Origin: an uncultured Fibrobacteraceae bacterium
GTDB lineage: Bacteria > Krumholzibacteriota > Krumholzibacteriia > LZORAL124-64-63
Assembly (NCBI GenBank): GCA_964343835.1
Contig: CAYFKR010000008.1
Location: forward strand, 64,318 to 128,317
Length of the DNA stretch: 64,000 bases
Direction of reading: 5' to 3'
Shown here: positions 48,538-61,217 of the stretch, one piece after another
Layout: each line of letters begins with the position of its first letter
Position numbering within the stretch: position 1 is the first letter of the stretch
Made by a program: the position numbers and the translations under genes
Notes under the pieces: generated by a model
The model's input: the letters and a program-made list of their open reading frames with translations, nothing else
Told to the model about the DNA's origin: nothing
Database searches by the model: none

Positions 48538-48881
48538 CGATGAACCGCCAGCTGAACATCCTCGTCGACATCCAGAACAAGGAACTGACCCTGCGCGACG
48601 CCGAGGACGCCGAGAAGGCCAAGGAATTCGAGGCCCTGGGCTTCGCCATGGACCCGGACAAGATCCGCGGCGAGATCGAGAATCTGCTGCAGGAGGTCGA
48701 TCCGAAGCACCGCGGCTACTACCTGCGCCTCAAGACCAAGTACTCGGACCCCGTGGTGCCGGTGCGCGACGGGCACTGCACCGGGTGCTACGCGAACGTG
48801 CCCACCTCGTTCACCTCGGTGATGAACGAGAACAAGGTCCAGAACTGCGAAAGCTGCGGACGGATCATCTTCCAGATCTGA
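48534..48881 (+). CDS. small zinc-ribbon protein
   Basis: C-terminal CTGC...x18...CESCGRIIF four-Cys ribbon. 4-nt overlap with the upstream EIIA gene. Confidence 0.5.
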   Translation: MTMNRQLNILVDIQNKELTLRDAEDAEKAKEFEALGFAMDPDKIRGEIENLLQEVDPKHRGYYLRLKTKYSDPVVPVRDGHCTGCYANVPTSFTSVMNENKVQNCESCGRIIFQI

Positions 48882-48908
48882 TCCGGTTGCGGAGGGCAAA
48901 GAGAAAGG

Positions 48909-48940
48909 GGCGACCCGGTCGGGTCGCCCCTTCTTCGTCC
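48909..48940. terminator. hairpin GGGGCGACCCGG-tc-GGGTCGCCCC followed by TTCTTCG between convergent genes
   Basis: Perfect 11-12 bp stem seen directly. Confidence 0.4.
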
Positions 48941-48988
48941 GCGGCACATCCGGCGTGGGCGGGAGGTCCCTCGCCGTCGGTCGCGGCC

Positions 48989-50245
48989 TCAGTCGTGCCA
49001 GGCGCCGGTGAGGGTCTGGCTCATGGTCAGACCGCTCCCCTCCTCCTCCTCGAACTTCTTCTTCTCGCCGCCGTCGTCGCGCACGCCCAGGTCGGTGCGG
49101 GCCCACTTGGTGGAACCGGCGGGCAGGACGGTGGTCTCGGCCTCCCAGTCGATGCCGGGCTCCTTGCGGAAGACGAAGTCGGTGCCGTCGTGGTCGATCA
49201 TCACGAGATCGCCGCGGCGGATCTGCTCGCTGCAGATGTAGTGGGAGATGGGGGTCACCAGACGCTTCTCCACCACGCGCTTCAGGGGACGGGCGCCGAA
49301 CTCGGGGTCGGTGCCCTCGTCCACGAGACGGGCCTTGGCGTCCGCCGAAACCTCCAGCAGGAAGGGCTCGGAGCACAGCAGGGCGCGGTGGTGGATCTGG
49401 GCGATCTGGTTGTCGAGGATGCTGTAGAGGTGCTCCTCCTTCAGCGTCCCGTAGGTGATCAGGTCGTCGAAGCGGTTCAGGAACTCGGCCGGGAAGACCT
49501 TCTTGGCCTCGCGGTTCACGGCCTCGACGATGTCCCGGTCCATCTGCTCGCCGGTCTGGCCGGAGCTGAAGCCGATGTTGTTCTGGGACAGGTGCCGGTT
49601 CATGACCTTGCTGCCGACGTTCGAGGTGAGCACGATGATCGACCGGGTGAAGTCGACTTCCTCGTTGTTGGCGAGGATCAGGTGACCGTCCTCCAGGATG
49701 CCGAGCAGCGTATTCCACATCTTCGGGTGAGCCTTCTCGACCTCGTCGAAGAGAACGATGTTCAGGTACTGCTCGGCTTCCGGAGGGAACATCTCGCCCA
49801 GGCGGCTGCCCGCCTCGCTGATGAGTCCCGTGCGCTTCTCGATGGCCTTCAGGTGGTGCCGGTCCAGGTTCTCCTGGGCCAGCAGGGGACGGATCTCGCC
49901 GCCCACGTAACCCGGGGGCGAACCGAGGAGCTTGGAGATGTTGTAGTGCGCGGAGAATTCCTGGCAGTTGATCCGGGTGAAGGCCCGGCGGTCGCCGAAG
50001 ATCGTCTCGGCGAGGCAGCGCACGGTCTCGGTCTTGCCCACGCCGGTGGGGCCGAGGAACATCATCGTCAGCAGGGGCCGGTCGGGATCGTGGATCCCGG
50101 CGATCAGCCGGCTGAAGCTGTCGGTGATGCGCGAGCTGGCGTCGGGCTGCCCGATGACCATCTCGTCCATGCGATGCTGAAACCTGCGGAGCTGTCCACC
50201 CACCATGCCCGGCTTAAGTTCGATCACGTTCGGCACCTCGTCCAT
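48989..50245 (-). CDS. stand-alone AAA+ ATPase of the Clp (ClpA/ClpB D2-module) type with unknown C-terminal extension
   Basis: VIGQPDA...FLGPTGVGKTE (Walker A)...GSPPGYVGG...IVLFDEVEKAHP (Walker B)...LTSN (sensor 1)...GARPLKR (Clp D2 signature). No D1 module, N-domain or ClpX zinc finger. Confidence 0.7.
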   Translation of the reverse strand: MDEVPNVIELKPGMVGGQLRRFQHRMDEMVIGQPDASSRITDSFSRLIAGIHDPDRPLLTMMFLGPTGVGKTETVRCLAETIFGDRRAFTRINCQEFSAHYNISKLLGSPPGYVGGEIRPLLAQENLDRHHLKAIEKRTGLISEAGSRLGEMFPPEAEQYLNIVLFDEVEKAHPKMWNTLLGILEDGHLILANNEEVDFTRSIIVLTSNVGSKVMNRHLSQNNIGFSSGQTGEQMDRDIVEAVNREAKKVFPAEFLNRFDDLITYGTLKEEHLYSILDNQIAQIHHRALLCSEPFLLEVSADAKARLVDEGTDPEFGARPLKRVVEKRLVTPISHYICSEQIRRGDLVMIDHDGTDFVFRKEPGIDWEAETTVLPAGSTKWARTDLGVRDDGGEKKKFEEEEGSGLTMSQTLTGAWHD

Positions 50246-50385
50246 TCTCGCTATGGTAACCGGTTGTCGTCCCGGTCATTCGTTCCAGATGTTTCCCTTG
50301 GTCTGGAAAGCGGAAGCCCGCCTCTGCCCCATCATCGGACGGGCGGAGGCGGGCTTGAGCTTTTCCCTGCAAGAAATTCCGTATT

Positions 50386-52113
50386 CTACGGAGTCTCCAC
50401 GTCGAGGTACGGGATGCAGAGGTACGGCGCCTGCTCCTGGCCGGGCCTCTCCACCCAGCGGTCGTCGATGGACGCCCGCACCGGGGAGTGGGCCTTGATG
50501 TAGGCCTCGAAGGCCTCAGCCGTGGTGATCTGGGTCAGTTCGATGCGGTCGGCCGGGATCGTGGTCAGGAAGTCCAGGCCGCTGTTGCCCTCCATGAGGA
50601 AGGAGGTGCAGACCACCCGGTATTCCTTCTCGAGATCCAGGGGCTCGCCGTTGACGAGCAGGGCGCAGCAGCGGTCCCAGTCGGGGCGGCTGCGGTCGAA
50701 GACCACCTGCAGGCCCGAGGTGCACAGGCCGCCCGAGTTGCCCCGGACCTTCCGCTCCACGATGCGGCGGATCATGGAGCCCTTCATGGTCACGAGCACC
50801 AGCTCGTTGCCGAAGGGCAGCACGCTGAAGACGTCGCGGGCGGTGATGTCGCCGGCCGGGACGTCGGCGCGCAGGCCGCCGGTGTTCTGGAACGAGAAGT
50901 CGGCGTCGAAGTGGGCGCGCATGGCGTCGGTCACGAGGTTCCCCATGACGCTGTTGGCCCCGCCGCGGGTCAGGTTGACCGACGCGGAACCGATGACGCG
51001 GCCCATCTCGGCCTCGGTCATCTCGATGTACGGGCGCAGGGCCTCGGTCATCTCCTCGTGGGGCCAGAGCTCGTCCTCGAAGAGGGTGACCAGGGTGCCG
51101 CGGTCGTGGGGACCGGCCCAGTCGATGATCGTGCCGCTGTCGCGGTGGATCGTGAGGATGGCGTGGCCCACGCTCGAACCGTTGCCGTAGCTCTCGAAGC
51201 ACATGGTGTGGTTCACGGGGTCGATCCAGGGCTCCGGATAGCCGCGATGGGTGTGGCCGCCCACGGCGAAGTCGATGCCCGACACCGCGTTGACCAGCTC
51301 CATGAGGTTCATGACGCCGGACTGGACGTAGCCGTAGCCGCCGCCCGCGTCGCCCTGGGTGTCCTCGGCCTCGGCCTGGCTGCCCACGATGCGGGCCCAG
51401 CCGGCATCGGGGTCGTAGGGCAGGCCCTCGTGGATCAGCAGGCCCACGATGTCCACGCCGTCGGCCCGGAGCTCGTCGCGCCAGTGCTCGATGGTCGGGG
51501 CCATGGGCTCGAACGACAGGCCCCGGATGTTGTCCGGGAACGCCATGTGCTCGGTGGCCGGCGTGCAGATGCCGATCAGGCCGAGGCGCAGGCCGCCCAC
51601 GTCGAACTCGATGGTTGGCTCGCACCAGTCCACCACCTCGCCCGTGGACTCCTCCACGATGTTGGCGCAGATCCACGGCGCGTCGGTGGAGCGGGCCAGC
51701 TTCTCGCAGTTGTCACGGCCCATGTCGAAGTCGTGGTTGCCGGGCACGATGGCGTCGTAGCCGATGGTGTTGAAGAACTCCACCACCGCCTCGCCCTTGG
51801 TCTTGGTGCCCACCGGCGTGCCCTGGAAGGTGTCGCCGGCGTCCAGGAGCATCACGTACTCCCCGGCCGCGGCGGCCCTCTCGCGCACCTCCTCCACGTA
51901 GGTCATCATGGATGCGCCGCCGCCCAGGGGGGGCGGGAAGGCGGGGTTCATGAAGCGCGCCATCTCGGGCGCGATGTGGCCGTGGACGTCGTTGGTCCAC
52001 ATCAGGTGCAGGGTCACCATGCCGTCGTCGTCGGCTGCCGCGGCTCCCGTCGCCCCGAGGACGACGAGGGCCAGGGCCAGCAGGACGGCGCGTGTTCCGT
52101 TCATGGTTCTCAT
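50386..52113 (-). CDS. secreted bifunctional-type 5'-nucleotidase / metallophosphatase (UshA-like)
   Basis: Signal peptide MRTMNGTRAVLLALALVVLGATGAAAA. Intact motifs NDVHGH, DAGDTFQG, GNHDFD, GGHTHRGY, plus the C-terminal nucleotide-binding domain. ATG at 52113 after GGAGGAGAC. Confidence 0.8.
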   Translation of the reverse strand: MRTMNGTRAVLLALALVVLGATGAAAADDDGMVTLHLMWTNDVHGHIAPEMARFMNPAFPPPLGGGASMMTYVEEVRERAAAAGEYVMLLDAGDTFQGTPVGTKTKGEAVVEFFNTIGYDAIVPGNHDFDMGRDNCEKLARSTDAPWICANIVEESTGEVVDWCEPTIEFDVGGLRLGLIGICTPATEHMAFPDNIRGLSFEPMAPTIEHWRDELRADGVDIVGLLIHEGLPYDPDAGWARIVGSQAEAEDTQGDAGGGYGYVQSGVMNLMELVNAVSGIDFAVGGHTHRGYPEPWIDPVNHTMCFESYGNGSSVGHAILTIHRDSGTIIDWAGPHDRGTLVTLFEDELWPHEEMTEALRPYIEMTEAEMGRVIGSASVNLTRGGANSVMGNLVTDAMRAHFDADFSFQNTGGLRADVPAGDITARDVFSVLPFGNELVLVTMKGSMIRRIVERKVRGNSGGLCTSGLQVVFDRSRPDWDRCCALLVNGEPLDLEKEYRVVCTSFLMEGNSGLDFLTTIPADRIELTQITTAEAFEAYIKAHSPVRASIDDRWVERPGQEQAPYLCIPYLDVETP

Positions 52114-52147
52114 GGTCTCCTCCCGGATCGTCGGTCCGACGACCAAT

Positions 52148-53431
52148 CTAGAACCGATAGATGAAGGTCGCACCCAGGCGGAAGCGGTTGTCCTCCACGC
52201 GGGCCGTGGGCACGGTCTCGAAGTCCTCGGGGTACGGGAACCAGTGCTCCTGCACCGAGGAGACCTTGCCCAGCTGGGCCGAGACGTCGAACATGCCGCC
52301 GCCGTAGGGCATGCCGATGCCGGCGGAGAACAGGCTCGCCGAGGCCTCGGTGTCCGCATACAGGTCGAAGTGGCGGAAGCCGAAGCGCACGGGCATGCCA
52401 TTGTAGAACACGTGCTCCACGCCCACACGGTAGTCGCGGGTGTTCTCGTCGAAGACCTTCGTGCCGTCGTCCTCGAACTGGGTCCACTCGGTCCAGACCA
52501 TCTCCAAGGTCACGACCGTGCGGGGCTCGGAACGGGGGTGATAGGCCAGGCCCATGCGGTACTGCTTGGGGTACGAGAACGTGCGGCCGACGGTCTCCCC
52601 CACCGGGTTCGCCAGGTCGGCGCCGGAGGCGGTGACGGTCTCCAGGTCGCCCTCGATGTCCACGGCCGTCTCGACCGAGGCGCCCAGGGTGAAGCGCTCG
52701 TCGGCCTCCACCAGGATGCCCGCCGTCCAGCCGAAGCCGTCGGCGTCGAGGGTCGAGTCCATGCTGTAGGTGTCGCCGGGGTTCTCGAAGACGCGCCTGT
52801 TGACGGCCCCCTCGAGGTCGGTGAACAGGTAGTGGGCCGTCAGACCCAGGCTCACCCGCTCGTTCAGGGCGTAGCCCGCGCCCAGGGCCAGGTCGCGCAG
52901 GGCGCCCGACGAGGACAGGGAACGCTCCTCCAGAATGCGGTCGCGGGGGTCGGAGAAGGAATCCGGGTCCCGCACCTGCTCCTCGAAGTCGTAGGCGAAG
53001 TCGTAGCGCTCGGTGAGCGACAGGCCGAGGCCGAAGCCCTCGCCGAAACTCCTCGCCACGGCGAAGCCGGCGTCGAGGTAGTGATGGCGGTTGCTGGCGA
53101 TGGCCGTGTCGGTGACGTAGCTGCCGAAGCTGTCGAAGAGGGGCTGGAAGCGGTCCTCGTGGTCCTGGGCCAGGGCCGCGCCGGCGTCCAGGCGCCAGGC
53201 GCCCGCCGCCGACAGGGTGGCCGGGTTGAGGACCGTGCCGAAGCCGCCGCGGTCGGCGGCCACGCCGGTGCCGCCCAGCGCGGCGATCTCTCCGCTGAGC
53301 CAGACGTCCGCCGAGCCGTAGCCGGGAGCGTCCACCGCCGAGCCCGCCCACGCGGCCGACGCCGCCGTCAGCAGGAGCGCGGCGAGGGCCGCGGTCCCGA
53401 TCCGGCTCGTGTATCGCTTGTTCTGCGTCAT
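52148..53431 (-). CDS. FadL/PorV-like outer-membrane beta-barrel protein
   Basis: Signal peptide. N-terminal NPA motif (GTVLNPATL). Amphipathic beta-strand pattern. C-terminal aromatic ending ...FIYRF. Confidence 0.5.
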   Translation of the reverse strand: MTQNKRYTSRIGTAALAALLLTAASAAWAGSAVDAPGYGSADVWLSGEIAALGGTGVAADRGGFGTVLNPATLSAAGAWRLDAGAALAQDHEDRFQPLFDSFGSYVTDTAIASNRHHYLDAGFAVARSFGEGFGLGLSLTERYDFAYDFEEQVRDPDSFSDPRDRILEERSLSSSGALRDLALGAGYALNERVSLGLTAHYLFTDLEGAVNRRVFENPGDTYSMDSTLDADGFGWTAGILVEADERFTLGASVETAVDIEGDLETVTASGADLANPVGETVGRTFSYPKQYRMGLAYHPRSEPRTVVTLEMVWTEWTQFEDDGTKVFDENTRDYRVGVEHVFYNGMPVRFGFRHFDLYADTEASASLFSAGIGMPYGGGMFDVSAQLGKVSSVQEHWFPYPEDFETVPTARVEDNRFRLGATFIYRF

Positions 53432-53447
53432 TCTATCCTTCTCCCTA

Positions 53448-55973
53448 TCAGAAGGTGTAGTCCATCTGCAGGCGGAACGAGGTCCAGTCCCGCGGGGCGT
53501 AGCTGCTTTCGATGTCCGCTCCGTACTGCTCGCCGTACTGGCGCACGTCCAGGTAGGTGCGCGGCAGGTTGTGGTCGCGCGTCACCTTGAGCTGGAAGAG
53601 CATCTGGTCGGAGACGCGGCTCTCGACCTTGAACCAGTTGCGGAAGCCCCGGCCGTCCACCACCACGAACTCGTTCCCCTCGAAGTTCCAGAGGAAGCCG
53701 TTGTAGATCTCGGAGCTCAGGAGCAGCCGGATCGTCGGCGACAGGTGGTGTTCGTACATGGCCTGGAACGCGTTGGCCGGGATGCCGGCCGTGCCCACGC
53801 CGGGCACGCCGGCGTAACTGCGGGGTTCGGCCGCCTCGGGCACGCCGCTCAGGCGCTGACGGGCGGGGAACCACACGTTGGAGGTCATGTACATGAAGCG
53901 CAGCCGGTTGTAGTTGGACAGCAGCGTGATGAGCTCGAAGCGCGACTCCCAGGAGCGGAACCAGCGCACGTCGTTCAGGTTGTCCTCTGAACGGCTGCTG
54001 TACCGGTGCCGCATCCTCAGGCGGAAGTTGAACTTGGGCTGGTACTCCACGCGCATGGTGTAGCGCGTCATGTCCGTGCCGTCGGACTTCCTCTCCCACT
54101 GGTCGAACTCGAGCCCGTTGAGGATCAGGCTGCGGCTGATCCGGTAGCGGGTCTGCAGGAACATGCCCCGCTCGGGCTTGGGCTGGGGCGTGTTCAGCGA
54201 CAGCCAGCTGTAGTAGTCGTCGTTGAGGCGGTACCCCGAGTCGAGCAGGGTCTGCTCGTAGCGGCTGTCGTTGCTGAAGCCGCGGTTGTAGGGGTTGTCG
54301 TAGCCCACGTCGTAGTCGCGCCACAGGGCCAGCAGGTGCAGGTTCTCCCACTGGGCGAAGGCGTTGAGGACCAGGGCGTCGTTGCGCTCGCCCTTGAACC
54401 AGTCGGCCTTCGGGTCCTGGAGCACGCCGTACTCCCCCTGGAACGACACGTTGTCCACCACGTGCTGGAACTCGGCGCCGTACACGCGGCGGAACTTGTG
54501 CTCCGTCACCGTGCCGTCCTTGTCCTCGCTGCGCTCGACGCTGTTGTAGCCCTGCCAGACCTCGCTGTCGCGGGCGTCCAGGTAGCCCTGGTTCAGGCTG
54601 TACTGGCTGACCAGGGTGGTCGGGTCGGGGTCGAAGCCGCGGTTGTAGCGGGCCTCGTACGCCGTCACGCCCACGTAGGTCGCGTCGCCCAGCATGTAGC
54701 GCAGGTTGCCGCCCACCAGATCCTCCCGGAGGCCGTCGCGGCGCAGGAGGGTCGGGGTGTCCGGGGCGTCGCCGGCGCCGTAGAGACGGCCGGGCTCGTA
54801 GGCCAGGTGCTCGTCGTACCACGAGTCGTAGGGACGCGGGAACGTGGAGACCTGACGGTTGATGGTGCCGTCCGGGTTGACGATGACGTCCCTCTTCTGC
54901 CAGCTCGCGAAGAACGTGGTGTAGAGGTTGCCGACGCGGCCCTCCATGGCGGCGCCCGTCAGGTCGTAGTCGTAGCTCCGGCTCAGATCGCCGCGCACGC
55001 CGATGGGGCGCTTGTTCCAGCCGAAGCCGGTCTTGCGGAACAGCACGTAGTCCGTGTTGTCCATGACCAGGCCCTGGCCGAAGGCCACGCGGAAGTTGCC
55101 GAAGTACAGGCCCTTGACGTGGAAGGGACCGAAGTCCTTGTCCTCCATGCCGTAGTAGGCCTTGGTGGTCTGGTTCCAGTGCTCCTCGTACATCTGACGG
55201 TCGGTGAGCACGCCCGCCTTGAACCCGTTGGTGAGGTTCAGGGTGAGCTTGTGGGTCAGGTGGAAGTCGCCGCCGTTGGGCAGGGTCGACGCGGCGATCT
55301 CCTCCTCGTCCATGGACAGCGGCGTGTTGTAGTACCGCGTCTGGTAGTTGCCGTGGACCTTGTCGCTGGCGCCGGCCTGCTCGTCCGAGTAGACCACGAA
55401 GTCGCGCAGGTTCCGGAACGACCAGTAGCGCAGCCCGTCGGCCCGGCGCAGCTGGCGCTGGGTCTCGAAACCGCCGAGGCGGTCGCGAGCCGCGATGATG
55501 TTCCGGGCGTCCACCGGCGAGACGTTCTGGAACGTCTGCAGGTCGAAGAGGTCCAGGTTGTTCACGTTGACCGGATCACGCATGAGGTCCAGGTACTCGT
55601 CCACGAGTCCCTCGCTGGCGCCCTCCTGGCCCAGGTAACGGCTCACCTGCCGGTACGAGGCCGCCAGGCGGGCGATGGACGCGTCCTGCGGGTCCGGGGG
55701 CATGGTCGAGACCAGGGGCTTGAGGGCCGCCAGGTGCTCGGCGGTCATGCCCTCGACCTCCATGAGGTCGTAGAGGCTGCCGAAGTACCGCACGTAGGTG
55801 CGATAGTCGATGATGCTCCGCGCCACCTCCTCGGGGATCGGCAGGTCCATCACCTCGGCCATGGAGGCCCGGTTCAGGTCCAGTCGATCCGCCGGGGCGG
55901 CCGCGGCCGCTCCGCACAGGATCGCGCCCAGCAGCAGGCACGCGATCCCGACGGTCGTTCTGCGCATCGTCAC
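53448..55973 (-). CDS. helix-hairpin-helix (ComEA-like) domain fused to a large outer-membrane beta-barrel
   Basis: Signal peptide, then LDLNRASMAEVMDLPIPEEVARSIIDYR (HhH) and a second HhH-like segment (VSPVDARNIIAARDRLGGFE). About 650 aa of barrel-like sequence ending ...QMDYTF. Confidence 0.5.
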   Translation of the reverse strand: MTMRRTTVGIACLLLGAILCGAAAAAPADRLDLNRASMAEVMDLPIPEEVARSIIDYRTYVRYFGSLYDLMEVEGMTAEHLAALKPLVSTMPPDPQDASIARLAASYRQVSRYLGQEGASEGLVDEYLDLMRDPVNVNNLDLFDLQTFQNVSPVDARNIIAARDRLGGFETQRQLRRADGLRYWSFRNLRDFVVYSDEQAGASDKVHGNYQTRYYNTPLSMDEEEIAASTLPNGGDFHLTHKLTLNLTNGFKAGVLTDRQMYEEHWNQTTKAYYGMEDKDFGPFHVKGLYFGNFRVAFGQGLVMDNTDYVLFRKTGFGWNKRPIGVRGDLSRSYDYDLTGAAMEGRVGNLYTTFFASWQKRDVIVNPDGTINRQVSTFPRPYDSWYDEHLAYEPGRLYGAGDAPDTPTLLRRDGLREDLVGGNLRYMLGDATYVGVTAYEARYNRGFDPDPTTLVSQYSLNQGYLDARDSEVWQGYNSVERSEDKDGTVTEHKFRRVYGAEFQHVVDNVSFQGEYGVLQDPKADWFKGERNDALVLNAFAQWENLHLLALWRDYDVGYDNPYNRGFSNDSRYEQTLLDSGYRLNDDYYSWLSLNTPQPKPERGMFLQTRYRISRSLILNGLEFDQWERKSDGTDMTRYTMRVEYQPKFNFRLRMRHRYSSRSEDNLNDVRWFRSWESRFELITLLSNYNRLRFMYMTSNVWFPARQRLSGVPEAAEPRSYAGVPGVGTAGIPANAFQAMYEHHLSPTIRLLLSSEIYNGFLWNFEGNEFVVVDGRGFRNWFKVESRVSDQMLFQLKVTRDHNLPRTYLDVRQYGEQYGADIESSYAPRDWTSFRLQMDYTF

Positions 55974-56857
55974 GGCGTCTCACCACCCCAGGCGAAGGTC
56001 ATGCCGAACTGGTGGCTGGGCTTGAGGATGCCGCCGCCGCTGGAGAAGGCGTAGTCCACGCCGAAGCCCTCGAAGACGTAGCCGAAGCCGGCGGTCATCT
56101 TGTTCGGGTTCGACAGGACGCCCGCCCGCAGGGCCAGCCGGTCCAGCACGGTGAACTCGACGCCGCCGTGGTACTGGGGGTCGTAGCCCAGCGCGGACTC
56201 GATCTCGAAGACCGTCGTCACGCCGTCGTAGGGCTCGTAGGCCAGGCCTGCGTGGAGGCGCTGGGTGAGCTCCTCGTTGTCCAGGCCGATGGTCGGGTTG
56301 TTCACGTTCTTCACCATCACGCCCAGGCGGGTGCGGCGGTGGAGGGTGACCAGCAGGCCCACGTCGCCGCCCACGGCGCCGGCGTCGCCGGGGTCGATCC
56401 CGGAGACCGTCTCGCCGAACTCGAGGCGGTAGAAGTTCAGGGCCGTACCCACGTCGACGGTGGTGTGCAGGTCCTCGTACAGGCGGATGCCGTGGGCGAG
56501 GGTGAACGTGGTCTCGTTGTGGAGATCCACGCCGTCGTACGTGGTGGCGAAGCGCCGCAGGCCGAAGCCCAGGCCGCCGTAGCGGCCCACGGGCATCACG
56601 CCGCCGAAGTAGAGCTGGTCCGTGAAGTCCAGCTGGTACGGCTTGACGTAACTGTTGCCCAGGGCGTAGCCGACCTGGTTGGCCATGCCGGCGGGGTTGA
56701 AGTAGGGGGCGAAGGCATCGTCAGCCGTCGCCACGCCCGAGTCGCCCATGCCGCGGGCGCGCGGGCTCGTATCGACGTTCTCGAAAGCCGCAAGCGCCGG
56801 CCCCGCTGCGAAGCACAGGGCCAGGGCGGCGAGCGTCAGGATCGTCAGTCGCTTCAT
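55970..56857 (-). CDS. small FadL-like / PorQ-PorP-like outer-membrane beta-barrel protein
   Basis: Signal peptide MKRLTILTLAALALCFAAGPALA. NPAG motif. C-terminal ...FAWGGETP. ATGA overlap with the downstream gene. Confidence 0.4.
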   Translation of the reverse strand: MKRLTILTLAALALCFAAGPALAAFENVDTSPRARGMGDSGVATADDAFAPYFNPAGMANQVGYALGNSYVKPYQLDFTDQLYFGGVMPVGRYGGLGFGLRRFATTYDGVDLHNETTFTLAHGIRLYEDLHTTVDVGTALNFYRLEFGETVSGIDPGDAGAVGGDVGLLVTLHRRTRLGVMVKNVNNPTIGLDNEELTQRLHAGLAYEPYDGVTTVFEIESALGYDPQYHGGVEFTVLDRLALRAGVLSNPNKMTAGFGYVFEGFGVDYAFSSGGGILKPSHQFGMTFAWGGETP

Positions 56858-56870
56858 GGCTCGCGTCCTC

Positions 56871-59800
56871 CTAGCGGCTCAGGGTGGTGGCCACGACCGC
56901 GGGGGCGACGACTTCGTCGCGCTGTCCCGTGATCTCGTCCACCACCAGAAGGTGGATGATGTAGGTGCCGGCCTTGACCAGCTCGAAGGTGTCGGTGCGT
57001 CCGTCCCACTCCATGTCCAGACGATTGATCTCGGCCTCGCCGAGGTCGAACCGGCTGTCGAAGAGGTTGCGGACGACCCGGCCCTCCAGATCGAAGATCC
57101 GCACCTGGGCCTCGGAGCCGCTCGGGTAGGTGACGGTGAAGGGGAACGCCTCGCCCAGATAGGCCAGGAAGGTCTTCGCCGGCACGTTCAGGGAGAAGGG
57201 CGCCAGGATGTCCATCAGCATGGGCGCGGCCTCCCAGGAGGCCGGGAAGTACAGCACGTCCTCGCCGGTGTGCACGCTCACCCACCAGCTCACCGTGACG
57301 CCCTCGTCGAAGGCGGGCACGGAGCAGGACCAGGCGCCGGTCTCGTCGGCGGTCATGTCCACCGTGCGCTCCGAGCCGCCGTCCACCGCGTAGTGGAAGA
57401 CGATGGAGTCGGGGGTCTCCAGACCGTCCACGTCCACCAGTTCCAGGGTGAAGGTCGACGGCGTGCCCGCGGGGGGCTGCGGAGGCGAGAAGGCGAAGCC
57501 GGCCACGATCTCGCTGAACACGCCCGGGGTGCCGGTGTTGACCACCCAGGTGTTGCTCAGGTCCTCGCCGGTCTCGTCGTGGCCCAGGGTGCCGTTGCCG
57601 CCGGTGGTGGGCTCGGCGCCCTCGGTGGCGTCCAGGCGCTGGAACGTCTGGCCGATCTCGTGGGTGTCCAGGAACTGGTCCTGGGAGCCCACCGGCGTGT
57701 CGTCCTCGTAGGGCGTGCCGTTGATGGAGTAGTTGTTGCGGTACACGCGGGCGCTGGTGGACTCGCCCCACATGAACATGTCGATGTCCTTCACCAGGTC
57801 GCTGACCTGGTCCCAGTAGTACAGGACCATGATCTCGGCGCCGTTGGTGAGGGTCGCGGCGTCGCCGGTGGGACTGCCCAGGCGGCTGCCCGGGAAGACG
57901 TCCAGCAGGTCGGGCACGTCGTCGGACGAGGAGCCGTCCTCGATGAGCTCGAAGTCAGGCGCCACGGCCCAGACGCCCTCGAAGGCGTCGCTGCCGGCGA
58001 TGGAGATGGTCAGGCTCTGGCCCGGCTGGATCACCGCGTCGGCGGGGAAGCGGGCGTGGAAGTCGTAGAAGTCGCCGCCGCCGATGGTGGACTGCTGGGG
58101 GTTGCCCTCGGGCAGTCGCCAGTAGGCCTGCGTGTTGTAGACGGCGTCGGTCAGGTAGTAGTTGTCCAGCTCCACGGCCTCGTTCGTCGGGTTGTAGATC
58201 TCGACGAACTCGTGGGTGGTCCCCATGACGCAGACCTCCGTCAGCAGCAGCTTCGGAGGGTTGGGTACGGGTTCGAGGGGCTCCTGGATCGTGAAGGTCT
58301 CCACGGTGCCGGGGGCGCCGGCGGGCCAGACGGCGGTGTCGCCGCCCGAGGCCGTGGCCGTGACGTACCAGGTGACCACGGCATCGAGGGCCTGGGTCGG
58401 GATGTCGCCCGACCACATGCCGCCGCCACCGTCGGTGCAGGTCACGTTCGCGTAGGCGCCGCCGTCGACGGCGTAGCTCAGGGTCACGCCTGTGACCGGC
58501 ACCAGGTTGACCACCGTGGCGGTGACCGTGGTGGGCTCGTCGGGGTTGGGCCGCGCAGGCGAAGTGGAGGCGGCGGTGATGGTCAGCGACTCGGAGCTGA
58601 ACTCGCCGGGGGTGCCGGCGGTGGCGACCACCCAGGTGGAGCTGACGTTCTCGCCGGTCTCGTCGTCGCCGCCGGGACCATTGCCCACCAGGTCGGGCTC
58701 GCTGCCCTCGGAGGGGTCGATGCGCTCGAAGGTGCCGCCGATCTCGTGGGCGGTCATGAACCGGTCCTGGGATGCGACCGGAGTGTCGGCCTGGTAGGTA
58801 GACGAACCGATGGTGTAGCCGGTGCGGTCCACCGCGGCGCTCGTGCTGGAGCCCCACATGAACATGTCCACGTCGGAGACCAGTTCCGTCACGCCGTCCC
58901 AGTAGTACAGCACCAGGATCTCGGCGCTGTTGGTCAGGGTGGCGGCGGCGGAGCCGTCCGGGGCGCCCAGCAGGCTGCCCGGGAAGATCTCGCGCATGTC
59001 CGCCACGTCGTCGGCGGAACCGCCGTCCTCGAGGAGCTCGAAGTCGGGGTCCATGCCCCAGACGGAGCTGAAGGCGTCGCTGCCGGCGATGGAGATGGTC
59101 AGGGTCTCCCCCGGGCCGATCTCGGCGTCGGCCGGGAAGCGGGCGTGGAAGTCGTTGAAGTCGCCGCCGCCGACGGTGTTCTGGGCCGGGCTGCCCTCGG
59201 GCAGGCGCCAGTAGCCCTGGTCGTTGTAGACGGCGTCGGTGAGGTAGTAGTCGTCCAGGGACACGGCCTCGTCGGTCGGGTTGTGGATCTCGACGAACTC
59301 GTGGTCGGTGCCCTGCACGCAGACCTCGGTCAGCAGCAGGTGCACGGGACCGTCGCCCGGATCCGGGGCCTCCTGGACCGTGTAGGTGGTGGCGTAGAAG
59401 GGGGCGTTGGCCGGGGCCTGGGCGGTGCCGCCGCCGGTGCCGACGGCCTCGAACCACCAGGCCACCTGGGCGCCGAGGGCCTGGGCCGGGATCTGGGCGC
59501 TCCAGTCGTCGCCGGCGGCCGAGGCCGCAACGTCGGTCCAGGCGCCGCCGTCCACGCTGTAGTGCAGCGTGGCCGAGGCGACCGCGTCGTTGGCCAGCAC
59601 CGTGGCCGTGACGTTCACCGGGAAGCCCACGTAGGCCGTGGCCGGCGAGGCCTCCAGGGCCGTCACGATGGGCGAGGGAGCCGGGCCCGTGCCGGTGGAG
59701 GCCGGGGTCTGGTCGCCCGTGTTGGTCCAGGTGGAGGTCAGGGGCTCGCTGGTCTCGTCGTCGCCGCCGGAGCCGTTGCCGCCGGTGGCGGTCTCGCCCG

Positions 59801-60587
59801 TCTCCTCGGCGTCGGTACGGACCAGGGCGTCGCCGTAGGTGTGGACGGCCAGGTCGTCCTGGGCGGCCACCGGGGTGTCCGCCTGGTAGGCGGTGGCCGT
59901 CTCGTCGGCGTCAGGGCCGTCCACGCTCACGCCGGTCTTGTCGACGCGGTAGACGTTGGAGGTGCCCCACAGCACGTAGTCCAGGTCGGTGACCAGGTCC
60001 GAGGCGCCGTCCCAGGTGTACAGCACCAGGCTCTCGCCGCTGTCGCCGAGCCAGCCTTCGCTGGGCAGGTCGTTGGTGCCGGTGCTGCCGAGGCCGAAGG
60101 CGATGGCGCCGGGGAAGGCCTCGCGCATGTCCGGCACGGCGTCGGGGGCGCTGCCGTCCTCGAAGAGCTCGAAGTCGGGGGCCTCGCCGGGGTAGGACAG
60201 GGCGAAGAGGTCGGAACCCCGCAGGGAGATCACGAAGGTCTCTCCTGCTCCCAGGGTGGTGCCGTCGGGGAAGCGGGCGTTGAAGTCGCCGCCGGTACCG
60301 CCGCCGCCCGCCTGGCCGCCCTCGACGAGCTGCCAGTAGCCGGAGCCGGTGTAGAGGGCGTCGGTCAGGTAGACGTCGGAAAGGTCCACGGCCGCCGCGG
60401 TGGGGTTGTGGATCTTCACGTACTCGCTGCCGAAGGACGGAATGCCCGGCCGCTCCCGCATCACCACTTCGGCGATCTGCAGGTGGTCGGCCGCGGCCGA
60501 GGCGATCGTCGGGACGAACGCCAGGACGGCGGCGAGGGCCAGCAGCGCCTTGGTGACGGCGTGCGTGCTCCTGTTCGGGTATGTCAT
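56871..60587 (-). CDS. 1238-aa secreted protein with three tandem lamin-tail-domain (LTD) repeats and a T9SS-type / FlgD-Ig-like C-terminal sorting domain
   Basis: Signal peptide. LTD core repeated three times: LQIAEVV...EYVKIHNPTAAAVDLSDVYLTD, LLLTEVCVQGTDHEFVEIHNPTDEAVSLDDYYLTD, LLLTEVCVMGTTHEFVEIYNPTNEAVELDNYYLTD. Each repeat continues ...YWRLPEG...GGGDF.DFHARFPADA.I.PG..LTISIAGSDAF. C-terminus AQVRIFDLEGRVVRNLFD...EWDGRTD.FELVKAGTYIIHL. Confidence 0.6.
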   Translation of the reverse strand: MTYPNRSTHAVTKALLALAAVLAFVPTIASAAADHLQIAEVVMRERPGIPSFGSEYVKIHNPTAAAVDLSDVYLTDALYTGSGYWQLVEGGQAGGGGTGGDFNARFPDGTTLGAGETFVISLRGSDLFALSYPGEAPDFELFEDGSAPDAVPDMREAFPGAIAFGLGSTGTNDLPSEGWLGDSGESLVLYTWDGASDLVTDLDYVLWGTSNVYRVDKTGVSVDGPDADETATAYQADTPVAAQDDLAVHTYGDALVRTDAEETGETATGGNGSGGDDETSEPLTSTWTNTGDQTPASTGTGPAPSPIVTALEASPATAYVGFPVNVTATVLANDAVASATLHYSVDGGAWTDVAASAAGDDWSAQIPAQALGAQVAWWFEAVGTGGGTAQAPANAPFYATTYTVQEAPDPGDGPVHLLLTEVCVQGTDHEFVEIHNPTDEAVSLDDYYLTDAVYNDQGYWRLPEGSPAQNTVGGGDFNDFHARFPADAEIGPGETLTISIAGSDAFSSVWGMDPDFELLEDGGSADDVADMREIFPGSLLGAPDGSAAATLTNSAEILVLYYWDGVTELVSDVDMFMWGSSTSAAVDRTGYTIGSSTYQADTPVASQDRFMTAHEIGGTFERIDPSEGSEPDLVGNGPGGDDETGENVSSTWVVATAGTPGEFSSESLTITAASTSPARPNPDEPTTVTATVVNLVPVTGVTLSYAVDGGAYANVTCTDGGGGMWSGDIPTQALDAVVTWYVTATASGGDTAVWPAGAPGTVETFTIQEPLEPVPNPPKLLLTEVCVMGTTHEFVEIYNPTNEAVELDNYYLTDAVYNTQAYWRLPEGNPQQSTIGGGDFYDFHARFPADAVIQPGQSLTISIAGSDAFEGVWAVAPDFELIEDGSSSDDVPDLLDVFPGSRLGSPTGDAATLTNGAEIMVLYYWDQVSDLVKDIDMFMWGESTSARVYRNNYSINGTPYEDDTPVGSQDQFLDTHEIGQTFQRLDATEGAEPTTGGNGTLGHDETGEDLSNTWVVNTGTPGVFSEIVAGFAFSPPQPPAGTPSTFTLELVDVDGLETPDSIVFHYAVDGGSERTVDMTADETGAWSCSVPAFDEGVTVSWWVSVHTGEDVLYFPASWEAAPMLMDILAPFSLNVPAKTFLAYLGEAFPFTVTYPSGSEAQVRIFDLEGRVVRNLFDSRFDLGEAEINRLDMEWDGRTDTFELVKAGTYIIHLLVVDEITGQRDEVVAPAVVATTLSR
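57800..60500 (-). repeat. three tandem intragenic repeats of about 0.95-1.0 kb encoding the LTD-containing units
   Basis: Repeated nucleotide stretches (for example GAAGTCGCCGCCGCCGA(T/C)GGTG..., CTCGAAGTCGGGG..., GTAGTACAGCACCAGGATCTCGGCGC...) at roughly 1-kb spacing. They parallel the protein repeats. Confidence 0.5.
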
Positions 60588-60699
60588 CGGATCCCGCTCC
60601 CTTTCTGAAGGGGTCGTACGGACTGGGGTTCACAGGTGGCTCGATGTTGGCCGGCAAACATAGGCCAACCGGAGCCTCGATTCAACAGGGTCGGGGGCG

Positions 60700-61161
60700 T
60701 CAGCCCTGGGGGGCCGGATCGCCGAAGCAGGCCAGCAGTTCCTCTGCCGTCGCCGCTCCTCGCAGGCAATCCAGGAAACCGTCTTCACGGACGGCGCGCA
60801 CGAGGCGTGCGAGCAGCCGCAGCATGGTCCGGGGATCCGTCTCCGGGCCGACGATCAGGAAGAGCACGTCCACCTCGGCGTCGGGGCCGTGCTCGTGGGG
60901 TACCGGGGCTTCCAGGGTCGCCACGGCGAGTCGTGGGGTGGTCACATGACGCGATCGTACGTGCGGAATGGCCACGCCGCGGCCCACGGCGGTGTCGCCG
61001 ACGAGCTCGCGGGCCAGGATGTCGCGCAACAGCGCCTCATCGTCCGCCACCACGCCGTCGCGGGCCAGGGCTTGGACGAGACGCGCGATGGCCTTATCCT
61101 TGGCATCGCAGTCCAGACGGGGCAACATGCAGGTGCCCGCGGTGAAATCCTGAAGCATCAT
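60700..61161 (-). CDS. PTS EIIA (PtsN-like) protein, second paralogue
   Basis: Phospho-histidine region TAVGRGVAIPHVRS. Same fold and length as the gene at 48076..48537. Confidence 0.65.
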   Translation of the reverse strand: MMLQDFTAGTCMLPRLDCDAKDKAIARLVQALARDGVVADDEALLRDILARELVGDTAVGRGVAIPHVRSRHVTTPRLAVATLEAPVPHEHGPDAEVDVLFLIVGPETDPRTMLRLLARLVRAVREDGFLDCLRGAATAEELLACFGDPAPQG

Positions 61162-61217
61162 GGCCCCCAACTGTAACGACAGCCCATGACCCTGTCCAGA
61201 GTCGGAAACGAGAAACC

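What the first reader, a model, noticed from the sequence alone, without database searches (positions are those of the whole stretch)
50386..60587. Five-gene outer-membrane locus combining LTD repeats, a T9SS-type C-terminal domain, FadL/PorV-like barrels, an HhH-barrel fusion and a secreted 5'-nucleotidase: possible extracellular DNA capture/utilisation system
Tightly packed minus-strand genes, from 5' to 3':
1. A 1238-aa protein with three lamin-tail-domain repeats and a T9SS/FlgD-Ig-like sorting tail.
2. A small FadL/PorQ-like barrel.
3. An 841-aa ComEA-like helix-hairpin-helix domain fused to a large beta-barrel.
4. A FadL/PorV-like barrel.
5. A UshA-like periplasmic 5'-nucleotidase with all catalytic motifs intact.

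Spacing is operon-like (ATGA overlaps and 13-34 nt gaps). Bacterial LTDs are characteristic of ExeM/NucH-family extracellular nucleases. HhH domains of the ComEA type bind dsDNA non-specifically. UshA-type nucleotidases complete eDNA-to-nucleoside/phosphate scavenging.

The combination suggests a surface-anchored, T9SS-exported system for binding and processing extracellular nucleic acid, conceptually a SusC/D-like utilisation locus for DNA. As far as I know it is not a described system. No nuclease gene is present in the locus itself, so the LTD protein may act purely as a capture or adhesion scaffold.
Basis: inference. Interest (0 to 1): 0.8.

Follow-up and report, generated by a model that had tools for sequence, protein, structure and literature searches.

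The report
Outer-membrane DNA capture-and-scavenging operon
A five-gene operon of an uncultured Krumholzibacteriota bacterium encodes a surface protein, three outer-membrane barrels (one fused to ComEA-like domains) and a periplasmic 5'-nucleotidase; its relatives in several phyla carry nucleic-acid-binding receptors and nucleases, so it is most likely an undescribed machine for taking up and digesting extracellular DNA.

Summary
They have their own conserved promoter and a terminator-like hairpin.

- g1: three lamin-tail domains, each followed by a CBM56-like sandwich, then a weak T9SS-type C-terminal domain (CTD).
- g3: two ComEA-type helix-hairpin-helix (HhH) modules fused to a barrel of about 24 strands with no specific known relative.
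- g4: FadL-like, and a distant paralog of g2.
- g5: a 5'-nucleotidase with intact motifs.

The module is conserved across Krumholzibacteriota and in lineages labelled WOR-3 and TA06, plus unnamed marine ones. In loci with g3 below 50% identity, g2 was present in 59/59, g4 in 54/63 and the nucleotidase in 29/32.

In these relatives the surface protein carries OB-fold or DUF5689 modules. DUF5689 is the family of the DNA receptor of the Bacteroides ddb and Riemerella DNA-uptake systems. Three unrelated nuclease folds occupy the operon: ComEC-like MBL, NucT-like PLD and EEP.

This supports a nucleic-acid capture, import and degradation role. PUL-like DNA-utilisation loci were published in 2025, but with a different, TonB-type channel.

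Caveats: g1 and HhH1 are strongly acidic, the window has no nuclease, and nothing has been tested experimentally.

The parts
60657..60685 (-). Promoter of the operon: -35 TTGAAT (60685-60680), 17-nt spacer, -10 TATGTT (60662-60657).
   Evidence: The same TTGnnn-N17-TAT(n)GT pattern, followed by GCGGCC, aligns upstream of g1 in more than 12 Krumholzibacteriota loci. The sequence was read. It falls below the threshold of the simple consensus scan.
56871..60587 (-). g1: secreted surface protein of 1238 aa. It has a signal peptide, then 3 x (lamin-tail domain + CBM56-like beta-sandwich), then a C-terminal T9SS-type domain.
   Evidence: Pfam LTD E 2.5e-27 (3 stretches) and CBM_56 E 5e-14. A third CBM_56-like copy and FlgD_ig E 8e-4 were found in the C-terminus. 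Net charge is -151.
56874..57215 (-). g1 C-terminal domain (residues ~1125-1238): putative T9SS signal and anchor domain.
   Evidence: FlgD_ig 19.8 bits, below cut-off. NCBIfam hit to the PorU C-terminus, E 0.0037. BLASTP homology to the C-terminal domains of surface proteins in distant loci, E 6e-13 to 7e-3. Those proteins hit Por_Secre_tail, FlgD_ig or CHU_C.
55970..56857 (-). g2: 14-strand PorV-like outer-membrane barrel (295 aa). Proposed anchor or shuttle for the g1 C-terminal domain, and a possible lateral partner of g3.
53448..55973 (-). g3: HhH-barrel fusion (841 aa). It has a signal peptide, two ComEA-type HhH modules, and a beta-barrel of about 24 strands ending in the beta-signal ...DYTF.
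55389..55892 (-). g3 N-terminal region (residues ~28-195): HhH1 (28-95) and HhH2 (130-195), presumably periplasmic.
52148..53431 (-). g4: FadL/TodX-like outer-membrane barrel (427 aa), a distant paralog of g2.
   Evidence: Toluene_X 39.3 bits, above the cut-off of 29.7. Weak BamG and PorV_fam hits. hhalign of the g2 profile against g4: probability 93.8%, E 1.8e-7. Follows g3 in 76/76 close and 54/63 distant loci.
50386..52113 (-). g5: UshA-like 5'-nucleotidase (575 aa). It has a Sec signal peptide, no lipobox and no C-terminal sorting domain, so it is presumably periplasmic.
   Evidence: 5_nucleotid_C E 1e-34 and Metallophos E 5e-9. All NCBIfam hits are far below equivalog cut-offs. All five metallophosphoesterase motifs are present in the translation.
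50378..50392 (-). Terminator-like hairpin overlapping the g5 stop codon.
   Evidence: It is the only terminator-like site on either strand of 48800-61600. It is weak: 6 pairs, 3 of them G-C.

Best explanation
The operon encodes an outer-membrane complex for capturing extracellular nucleic acid, moving it into the periplasm and degrading it for nucleoside and phosphate scavenging.

Proposed steps. All are inferred unless marked otherwise.
[quoted passage not shown] It stays on the cell surface because its conserved C-terminal domain binds the adjacent PorV-like barrel g2. This mirrors PorU-PorV, PorZ-PorQ and type-B-CTD/PorP pairs.
2. The modules of g1 (LTDs here; OB-fold or DUF5689 in orthologs) hold DNA or RNA at the surface, possibly through bridging divalent cations.
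3. The polymer, or large fragments of it, passes through the ~24-strand g3 barrel, which has no TonB-type plug. The two ComEA-like HhH modules tethered to the periplasmic face retain the incoming strand, acting as a built-in ComEA-style ratchet.
4. g2 and g4 are 14-strand PorV/FadL-type barrels. They sit beside g3 as accessory subunits, as PorV does with SprA and BamG with BamA.
5. Periplasmic nucleases cut the polymer. They are encoded in the operon in relatives and must lie elsewhere in this genome. The g5 5'-nucleotidase then converts the nucleotides to nucleosides plus phosphate for uptake.

Shown here: the gene content, the folds of g2 and of the g3 HhH region, the operon structure, and the cross-phylum conservation and context. 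Not shown: any binding, transport or catalytic activity.
For: Gene order. Surface protein, g2, g3, g4 and 5'-nucleotidase keep this order in 168 related loci.
- Close loci: g2 80/82, surface protein 75/75, g4 76/76, 5'-nucleotidase 59/59.
- Distant loci (g3 below 50% identity): g2 59/59, surface protein 40/42, g4 54/63, 5'-nucleotidase 29/32.
- Flanking genes differ between lineages.

Surface proteins. Among 40 surface proteins encoded in the upstream operon chain, next to g2:
- 25 have LTD.
- 22 have the OB-fold nucleic-acid-binding domain (best E 5e-15).
- 7 match DUF5689 (best E 2.4e-12). This is the family of DdbD / RA0C_RS04920, the proposed DNA-binding surface subunit of systems required for DNA uptake or depletion (PMC12478041, PMC8459023).
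- 19 have T9SS-type C-terminal domains (sum of per-family counts: FlgD_ig 10, Por_Secre_tail 8, CHU_C 1; some proteins may match more than one).

Nucleases. Three unrelated folds sit in the same operon in different lineages.
- A ComEC-like MBL lipoprotein in 11 of the 79 genome loci, plus one metagenome locus. It matches PDB ComEC 30bt at E 2.4e-17 and TIGR00361 at E 1e-19.
- A NucT-like PLD: PLDc_2 E 5e-24, NucT E 4e-15.
- An EEP enzyme: 34.5 bits against a cut-off of 24.5.

Structures.
- g3 HhH region resembles ComEA by sequence and fold.
- The g1 C-terminal domain is conserved across all orthologous surface proteins.
- L084 has a second pair, a CTD protein followed by a g2 paralog.

Operon. 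One conserved promoter, tight spacing and one terminator-like site.

Precedent for CTD-barrel anchoring: PMC9143113.
Against: - The window has no nuclease in the operon, and the ComEC-like gene is absent from the whole 64 kb.
- g1 is extremely acidic: net -151, with each LTD at -34 to -43. That is 2-4 times more acidic per residue than other window proteins.
- HhH1 is acidic (pI 4.4), and only one of its four canonical hairpin glycines is kept. Only HhH2 is basic.
- The function of bacterial LTDs is unknown, and the LTD is dispensable for DNA degradation by ExeM in vivo (PMC6085458).
- CBM_56-like modules suggest a possible carbohydrate ligand.
- The g3 model is only moderate (pLDDT 70). Its lumen and gating could not be inspected.
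- No T9SS core gene and no inner-membrane nucleoside transporter were seen in the window.
- Eight loci have only surface protein, g2 and g3, followed by housekeeping genes. The nucleotidase is therefore not obligatory.
- No expression or biochemical data exist.
Confidence: 0.55

Rival explanations
1. The module is the outer-membrane step of natural transformation. It would be a DNA-uptake channel with a built-in ComEA, serving gene acquisition rather than feeding. The nucleotidase and nucleases would only tidy up the non-transforming strand.
For: - ComEA-type HhH modules are present.
- The in-operon nucleases of relatives resemble competence-linked enzymes: the ComEC MBL domain and NucT.
- DUF5689 receptors are homologous to a Riemerella protein essential for transformation (PMC8459023).
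- The ddb feeding locus and the Riemerella transformation locus are themselves related.
- Minimal three-gene loci lack the nucleotidase.
Against: - A 5'-nucleotidase, which is a catabolic enzyme, is kept in 88 of the 91 loci where it could be checked.
- No comEC, dprA or comF lies next to any examined locus.
- The promoter looks like a plain housekeeping sigma-70 type.
- The two roles are not mutually exclusive.
Confidence: 0.2
2. The locus is a T9SS cargo-anchoring complex for an acidic adhesin or matrix protein. g1 would bind cations, minerals or polysaccharide. The link to nucleic acid would come only from shared domain families and from a phosphate-scavenging neighbour gene.
For: - g1 has net charge -151 and carries CBM_56-like modules.
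- The function of LTDs is unknown.
- g2 is PorV-like, and pairs of a CTD protein with a barrel are a general T9SS anchoring device.
- HhH1 is acidic with degenerate hairpins.
- HHH_3-type domains also occur in proteins that do not bind DNA, for example GspK (weak hit).
Against: - It does not explain why OB-fold and DUF5689 modules, three nuclease folds and a nucleotidase recur in the same operon across distant lineages.
- It does not explain why a large dedicated barrel with ComEA-like domains is always present.
Confidence: 0.12
3. The module imports small phosphorylated compounds for phosphate scavenging by g5: free nucleotides, NAD, UDP-sugars or short oligonucleotides made by other organisms. 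g3 would be a specific porin rather than a polymer translocon.
For: - The window has no nuclease, while the nucleotidase is conserved.
- UshA-type enzymes act on mononucleotides and UDP-sugars (established knowledge of the family).
- FadL-type and porin-like barrels usually pass small molecules.
- 'Cheater' use of DNA subcomponents has been proposed for other sediment bacteria (PMC8289736).
Against: - A ~24-strand barrel is much larger than a nucleotide porin needs to be.
- Multi-domain surface receptors with OB or DUF5689 modules point to a polymeric ligand.
- Relatives do carry nucleases in the operon.
Confidence: 0.13

Closest known systems
ddbABCDEF DNA-utilisation locus of Bacteroides thetaiotaomicron (PMC12478041)
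   Same: - It follows the same logic: a surface DNA-binding protein, an outer-membrane channel and secreted or periplasmic nucleic-acid hydrolases in one PUL-like locus.
- Orthologs of g1 in other lineages carry the same DUF5689 receptor family as DdbD.
   Different: - The ddb channel DdbC is a TonB-dependent-type barrel with a CarboxypepD_reg domain. g3 has no such domain or plug and has HhH modules instead. hhalign against a CarboxypepD_reg barrel gave probability 0.6%.
- ddb proteins are lipoproteins, whereas this surface protein has a T9SS-type C-terminal domain and a PorV-like partner.
- ddb encodes three nucleases, and the window locus encodes none.
- ddb has no 5'-nucleotidase.
Riemerella anatipestifer natural-transformation genes RA0C_RS04920/04915 plus the HhH protein RA0C_RS02645 (PMC8459023)
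   Same: It is an FCB-group system in which a surface DUF5689 protein, an outer-membrane barrel and a periplasmic HhH protein are all needed for DNA uptake. The same three functions appear here.
   Different: - Here the HhH modules are fused to the barrel rather than forming a separate protein.
- The barrel family is different.
- Two extra PorV/FadL-type barrels and a nucleotidase are present.
- No link to transformation has been shown.
ComEA (periplasmic DNA-binding competence protein)
   Different: - The modules are fused to an outer-membrane barrel.
- HhH1 is acidic and has lost most hairpin glycines.
- ComEA works with the PilQ secretin and type IV pili.
T9SS cargo-barrel pairs: SprA-PorV, PorU-PorV, PorZ-PorQ, and type-B-CTD protein with a PorP/SprF-like barrel (PMC9143113)
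   Same: - A protein bearing a C-terminal sorting domain is encoded directly upstream of a small PorV/PorP-type barrel.
- The g2 model superposes best on PorV.
- Some g2 homologs carry precomputed PorV or PorP_SprF Pfam hits.
   Different: - g2 scores below the PorV and PorQ family cut-offs.
- The pair is embedded in an operon with a large HhH-barrel and a nucleotidase, which no described T9SS component has.
ExeM/Xds/NucH extracellular nucleases and the Shewanella eDNA-utilisation pathway with UshA
   Same: - The same domain vocabulary occurs: LTD, OB-fold, EEP and a UshA-like 5'-nucleotidase.
- It uses the same two-stage logic of polymer hydrolysis followed by dephosphorylation.
   Different: - In ExeM the domains are fused in one enzyme.
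- Here the LTD protein has no catalytic domain, and the functions are spread over an operon built around outer-membrane barrels.

Membership tests
Ddb / Riemerella-type outer-membrane DNA uptake-utilisation locus | DdbC-type channel: a CarboxypepD_reg plus TonB-dependent-receptor-like barrel. | tested here: not met
   g3 has no CarboxypepD_reg, plug or TonB_dep_Rec hit. hhalign of the g3 family profile against a CarboxypepD_reg barrel (L088, 1024 aa) gave probability 0.6%. DdbC itself was not available for comparison.
Ddb / Riemerella-type outer-membrane DNA uptake-utilisation locus | DUF5689 (DdbD-type) surface DNA-binding partner encoded next to the channel. | tested here: inconclusive
   The window's g1 has LTDs and no DUF5689 or OB-fold hit. 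Among 40 orthologous-position surface proteins, 7 hit DUF5689 (best E 2.4e-12) and 22 hit the OB-fold domain.
Ddb / Riemerella-type outer-membrane DNA uptake-utilisation locus | Secreted or periplasmic nucleases in the locus. | tested here: not met
   There is none in the window operon, and the ComEC-like gene gives no tblastn hit anywhere in the window. Relatives carry MBL, PLD or EEP nucleases.
ComEA-type HhH DNA-binding domain (HHH_3) | Sequence match above the family cut-off, and a ComEA-like fold. | tested here: met
ComEA-type HhH DNA-binding domain (HHH_3) | Canonical G-hydrophobic-G hairpins and a basic DNA-binding surface. | tested here: not met
   The HhH1 hairpins read LPIP and EGMT where Thermus ComEA has GIG and GIG. 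HhH1 has pI 4.4 and net charge -6. HhH2 has pI 9.9.
ComEA-type HhH DNA-binding domain (HHH_3) | Sequence-independent dsDNA binding. | not testable with these tools
   This needs EMSA or fluorescence anisotropy with the purified g3 N-terminal region.
T9SS cargo protein | C-terminal sorting domain recognised by Por_Secre_tail, FlgD_ig or CHU_C models. | tested here: inconclusive
   g1 C-terminus: FlgD_ig 19.8 bits, below the cut-off of 27, and PorU C-terminus E 0.0037. It is homologous to the C-terminal domains of orthologs. Of 40 such proteins, 8 hit Por_Secre_tail and 10 hit FlgD_ig.
T9SS cargo protein | T9SS core genes (sprA/sov, porK-N, porU, porV) in the same genome. | not tested
   None were found among the window genes scanned. 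The rest of the genome is not available. Neighbouring Krumholzibacteriota genes with FlgD_ig tails only hint at a T9SS.
PorV/PorQ family (g2) | 14-strand FadL-type barrel most similar to PorV. | tested here: met
PorV/PorQ family (g2) | Score above the curated family cut-off. | tested here: not met
   NF033709 PorV_fam 68.1 bits against 90. PF19572 22.5 bits against 27.
FadL/TodX family (g4) | Pfam Toluene_X above the gathering score. | tested here: met
   39.3 bits against 29.7, covering residues 32-321.
UshA-like 5'-nucleotidase (g5) | Metallophosphoesterase N-domain with all catalytic motifs, plus the 5_nucleotid_C domain. | tested here: met
   Pfam E 5e-9 and 1e-34. The motifs NDVHG, GDTFQG, GNHDFD, LIHEG and GGHTH are read. 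It is not an UshA equivalog: 173 bits against a cut-off of 600.
ExeM/Xds/NucH extracellular nuclease (g1) | LTD plus OB-fold plus an EEP nuclease domain in one protein. | tested here: not met
   g1 has LTDs only. No OB-fold or Exo_endo_phos hit was found.
SusC/SusD polysaccharide-utilisation locus | A SusC-like TonB-dependent transporter with a SusD-like lipoprotein. | tested here: not met
   None of the five proteins hit SusC, SusD or TonB-dependent-receptor models.

The most novel reading that the evidence does not exclude
g3 would be the founding member of a new class of TonB-independent outer-membrane nucleic-acid translocons. It would consist of a ~24-strand barrel with a covalently tethered ComEA-like periplasmic ratchet, flanked by two PorV/FadL-type barrels, and fed by a T9SS-displayed receptor. 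This machine would be the general route by which Krumholzibacteriota, WOR-3, TA06 and related uncultured lineages import environmental DNA. It could serve both as food and as the missing outer-membrane step of natural transformation.
Probability: 0.3. Interest if true: 0.85.

Novelty: new variant of a known kind. Interest (0 to 1): 0.72.

Why it matters
Extracellular DNA is a major pool of phosphorus, nitrogen and carbon in sediments and water. It is also the substrate of natural transformation. Only two kinds of outer-membrane DNA entry route are described so far:
- the PilQ secretin working with type IV pili and ComEA;
- the recently described TonB-type DdbC/DdbD system of Bacteroidota.

This operon would add a third architecture, built from different parts but sharing the DUF5689/OB receptor family. 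It is found in lineages that are abundant in sediments, wastewater and the ocean and that have no cultured model.

It gives concrete targets for binding, transport and structural work: g3, the g1-g2 pair, and the in-operon nucleases of relatives. It also provides a genomic marker for predicting DNA-foraging capacity in metagenomes.

Tried and rejected
Hypotheses tested and rejected.
- g3 as a TonB-dependent or DdbC-like barrel. Rejected: no plug or CarboxypepD_reg domain, and hhalign probability 0.6%.
- A Pho box upstream of g1. Alignment of upstream regions shows only a sigma-70-like promoter and a ribosome-binding site, with no conserved direct repeat.
- The AAA+ gene downstream (48989-50245) as part of the module. 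It is syntenic in all Krumholzibacteriota loci but absent from distant ones. It is treated as lineage-specific synteny.
- PtsN-like EIIA as the first gene of the operon. Its position varies between loci, and g1 has its own promoter.

Searches that led nowhere.
- The AFDB Foldseek library was not available.
- The exact look-up of P0001 failed.
- The look-up of P0320 gave only short metagenome contigs.
- Four of the full-text literature searches, aimed at an HhH-barrel fusion or this gene combination, found no description. This is not proof of absence, because subscription journals are largely missing from the library.
- The genome-contig scan with close-family patterns returned only Krumholzibacteriota-like loci. 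Distant members came from the HMM search and the metagenome scan.

Full report

Yes. The window is about 69% G+C. Five consecutive minus-strand ORFs have the third-position G+C of real genes, 0.92-0.97.

| Gene | Coordinates | Length |
|---|---|---|
| g1 | 56871-60587 | 1238 aa |
| g2 | 55970-56857 | 295 aa |
| g3 | 53448-55973 | 841 aa |
| g4 | 52148-53431 | 427 aa |
| g5 | 50386-52113 | 575 aa |

- The mechanical ORF for g5 runs to 52428. The start that gives a signal peptide is MRTMNG at 52113.
- Spacing is 13 nt, a 4-nt GTGA overlap, 16 nt and 34 nt.
- All five products begin with a Sec-type signal peptide. g3 and g4 end in an aromatic beta-signal...DYTF and ...IYRF (read).
- The only terminator-like hairpin in 48800-61600 sits on the g5 stop codon.
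- Aligning the 160 nt upstream of g1 from related loci shows a conserved sigma-70-like promoter. In the window it reads TTGAAT-N17-TATGTT at 60685-60657, followed by an AAGGGAG ribosome-binding site. No Pho-box-like repeat is present.

The five genes therefore form one transcription unit by every criterion available without RNA data.

**2. What the proteins are**

*g1*
- It consists of three lamin-tail domains (Pfam LTD, E 2.5e-27). Each is followed by a beta-sandwich that matches CBM_56 (E 5e-14; a third copy at E 1.6e-4).
- Its C-terminal ~110 residues match FlgD_ig only weakly (19.8 bits, cut-off 27). They also match the C-terminus of the T9SS sortase PorU (E 0.004).

*g2*
- It falls below the PorV/PorQ family cut-offs by sequence (68 bits against 90).
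- Its AlphaFold model (pLDDT 84, pTM 0.79) is a 14-strand barrel.

*g4*
- It passes the Pfam FadL/Toluene_X threshold.
- It is a distant paralog of g2 (hhalign probability 93.8%).

*g5*
- It is a 5'-nucleotidase/metallophosphoesterase with all catalytic motifs.
- It is not an equivalog of UshA or any other curated enzyme.

*g3*
- This is the unusual protein. Residues ~28-195 hold two HHH_3 modules (E 7.8e-18).
- Residues ~205-841 form a barrel of about 24 long strands (AF2 pLDDT 70, pTM 0.66).
- It is not LptD, because the window has its own LptD at 8491-12354.
- By the usual topology of even-stranded barrels, the N-terminal HhH modules should face the periplasm. This is an inference.

**3. 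Organism and conservation**

- g3 homologs of 55-73% identity are named Candidatus Krumholzibacteria.
- A scan of one genome per species returned 79 loci. Wherever the contig allows, the order g1-g2-g3-g4-g5 is kept, down to 41% identity of g3.
- An exhaustive HMM search of 1.84 billion representative proteins found 131 clusters at E<1e-30. Full-length members of 750-890 aa are named WOR-3, TA06 and 'Elusimicrobiota', or come from Tara Oceans contigs.
- A metagenome scan with a diverse alignment found 373 relatives.

Counts across all 168 loci:

| Feature | Close loci (g3 at least 50% identical) | Distant loci (g3 below 50%) |
|---|---|---|
| g2 upstream | 80/82 | 59/59 |
| Surface protein upstream of g2 | 75/75 | 40/42 |
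| g4 downstream | 76/76 | 54/63 |
| 5'-nucleotidase | 59/59 | 29/32 |

- The genes flanking the module differ completely between lineages. The association is therefore functional, not residual synteny.
- A minimal form with only surface protein, g2 and g3 exists in WOR-3 and one other group.

**4. Evidence for a nucleic-acid role**

It comes mainly from the relatives.

*(a) The surface proteins.* Of 40 surface proteins encoded in the upstream operon chain, next to g2:

| Domain | Members | Best E-value |
|---|---|---|
| LTD | 25 | 9.9e-30 |
| OB-fold nucleic-acid-binding (PF01336) | 22 | 5.4e-15 |
| DUF5689 | 7 | 2.4e-12 |
| FlgD_ig | 10 | 1.9e-07 |
| Por_Secre_tail | 8 | 1.5e-14 |
| CHU_C | 1 | 0.00087 |

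DUF5689 is the family of DdbD and RA0C_RS04920. These are the proposed DNA-binding surface subunits of the Bacteroides ddbABCDEF DNA-utilisation locus and of the Riemerella natural-transformation machinery. Both systems were shown genetically to be required for DNA depletion or uptake (PMC12478041, PMC8459023).

*(b) Nucleases.* Three unrelated nuclease folds appear inside the operon in different lineages.
- A ~450-aa lipoprotein sits between g4 and g5 in 11 of the 79 genome loci and in one metagenome locus. Its MBL domain is closest to the ComEC nuclease domain (PDB 30bt E 2.4e-17; TIGR00361 E 1e-19).
- A 192-aa PLD enzyme is closest to NucT.
- A 294-aa EEP enzyme follows the nucleotidase in marine loci.

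*(c) One locus is flanked by a purine-nucleoside phosphorylase*.

*(d) LTD partners.* The enzyme families that accompany LTDs in bacteria generally are MBL, EEP and calcineurin-like phosphoesterases (PMC6085458). These are exactly the ones seen here.

**5. Proposed mechanism**

All steps are inferred.
1. g1 is exported by the T9SS and retained on the surface. Its C-terminal domain binds the PorV-like barrel g2. That domain is conserved in all orthologous surface proteins (E 6e-13 to 7e-3).
   - Precedents are PorU-PorV, PorZ-PorQ and type-B-CTD proteins with PorP/SprF-like barrels (PMC9143113).
   - Locus L084 carries a second pair, a CTD protein followed by a g2 paralog, which supports the pairing.
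2. The receptor holds the polymer at the surface.
3. The polymer passes through g3, where the tethered ComEA-like modules retain it in the periplasm.
5. Nucleases and then g5 release nucleosides and phosphate.

**6. What speaks against it**

- The window locus has no nuclease, and the ComEC-like gene is absent from the 64 kb.
- g1 is extraordinarily acidic: net -151, pI 4.1, with each LTD at -34 to -43. That is -12 per 100 residues, against -3 to -7 for other window proteins.
- The best-scoring HhH module is acidic too (pI 4.4) and keeps one of four hairpin glycines. Only HhH2 is basic.
- Direct electrostatic DNA binding by these parts is therefore doubtful. Cation bridging or another ligand must be considered.
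- The role of bacterial LTDs is not established.
- The CBM_56-like modules could indicate a glycan ligand.
- I could not show a T9SS in this genome.
- I could not inspect the g3 lumen.
- The taxonomic labels of many MAG records are unreliable. Records labelled 'Fibrobacteraceae' or 'Gemmatimonas' carry loci 60-70% identical to Krumholzibacteria ones.

**7. Rival explanations**

- *Natural transformation.* This rival shares most of the evidence and is not exclusive. The near-universal catabolic nucleotidase and the absence of comEC, dprA or comF nearby favour scavenging.
- *A pure adhesin-anchoring complex.* This explains the acidity and the CBM-like modules. It does not explain the recurring nucleic-acid domains and nucleases.
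- *A small-nucleotide porin model.* This explains the missing nuclease. It does not explain the size of the barrel or the multi-domain receptors.

**8. Comparison with what is known, and novelty**

- The machinery is different. There is no TonB-type channel. Instead there is a ComEA-barrel fusion with no described relative, two PorV/FadL-type barrels, T9SS-type anchoring and a nucleotidase.
- Four full-text searches aimed at such a fusion or gene combination found no description.
- I file it as a new variant of a known kind, namely FCB-group outer-membrane DNA uptake/utilisation loci.
- It is not a member of the Ddb family, because the defining channel was tested and not met.
- Interest is high but tempered, because the function is wholly inferred.

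Noticed in passing
window 60657-60685 (minus strand): A sigma-70-like promoter (TTGAAT-N17-TATGTT, then GCCGGCC) lies upstream of g1. It is conserved in more than 12 Krumholzibacteriota loci, with an AAGGGAG ribosome-binding site 6-9 nt before the ATG. This may be a useful first view of promoter structure in this uncultured phylum.
   Followed up: partly
L016 11719-13071; L062 11845-13275; L023 11820-13190; L106 4568-5959: A ~450-aa lipoprotein sits between g4 and g5 in 11 of the 79 genome loci and in one metagenome locus. Its MBL domain is closest to the nuclease domain of ComEC (PDB 30bt E 2.4e-17). It is a stand-alone, probably periplasmic or surface-exposed ComEC-type nuclease. It is absent from the window.
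   Followed up: partly
window 48989-50245 (minus strand): A stand-alone 418-aa AAA+ protein resembles only the second nucleotide-binding domain of ClpB/ClpA (AAA_2 + ClpB_D2-small). It has no N-domain and no ClpX zinc finger. It follows g5 in every Krumholzibacteriota locus but not in distant lineages. Its function is unknown.
   Followed up: partly
window 56871-60587 (g1): g1 is extremely acidic: net charge -151 and pI 4.1, about 12 excess acidic residues per 100. Orthologous OB/DUF5689 surface proteins are acidic too. This suggests cation-dependent ligand binding, or a ligand other than naked DNA.
   Followed up: partly
window 60700-61152 (minus strand): A PtsN-like EIIA (PTS_EIIA_2, E 4e-25) lies directly upstream of the operon here and in many, but not all, related loci. 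It might be a regulatory link to nitrogen or phosphate status.
   Followed up: no
L088 15108-18901: Convergent with one distant locus lie a 1024-aa CarboxypepD_reg/OMP_b-brl_4 barrel (the general type of DdbC) and a purine-nucleoside phosphorylase. The two kinds of DNA-related outer-membrane barrel may coexist.
   Followed up: no
L082 5365-6534: In the WOR-3 locus a NamZ/DUF1343 gene is the divergent neighbour of the three-gene module. A DUF1343 gene was one of the unexplained genes essential for Riemerella transformation (PMC8459023). This may be coincidence.
   Followed up: no
L084 15130-17219: A second cargo/barrel pair lies downstream of the nucleotidase: a 432-aa Por_Secre_tail protein followed by a 264-aa g2 paralog. 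In this locus no surface protein is encoded upstream of the first g2.
   Followed up: partly
window 17505-20301 (minus strand): A response regulator with a PglZ (alkaline-phosphatase-like) output domain lies next to a histidine-kinase-type ATPase.
   Followed up: no
L004, L006-L011, L016, L018-L020 and other loci: Many MAG records titled 'uncultured Fibrobacteraceae', 'Gemmatimonas sp.', 'Fibrobacter sp.' or 'Latescibacterota' carry loci 60-70% identical to Krumholzibacteria ones, with the same wider synteny. Their taxonomic labels are probably wrong.
   Followed up: no
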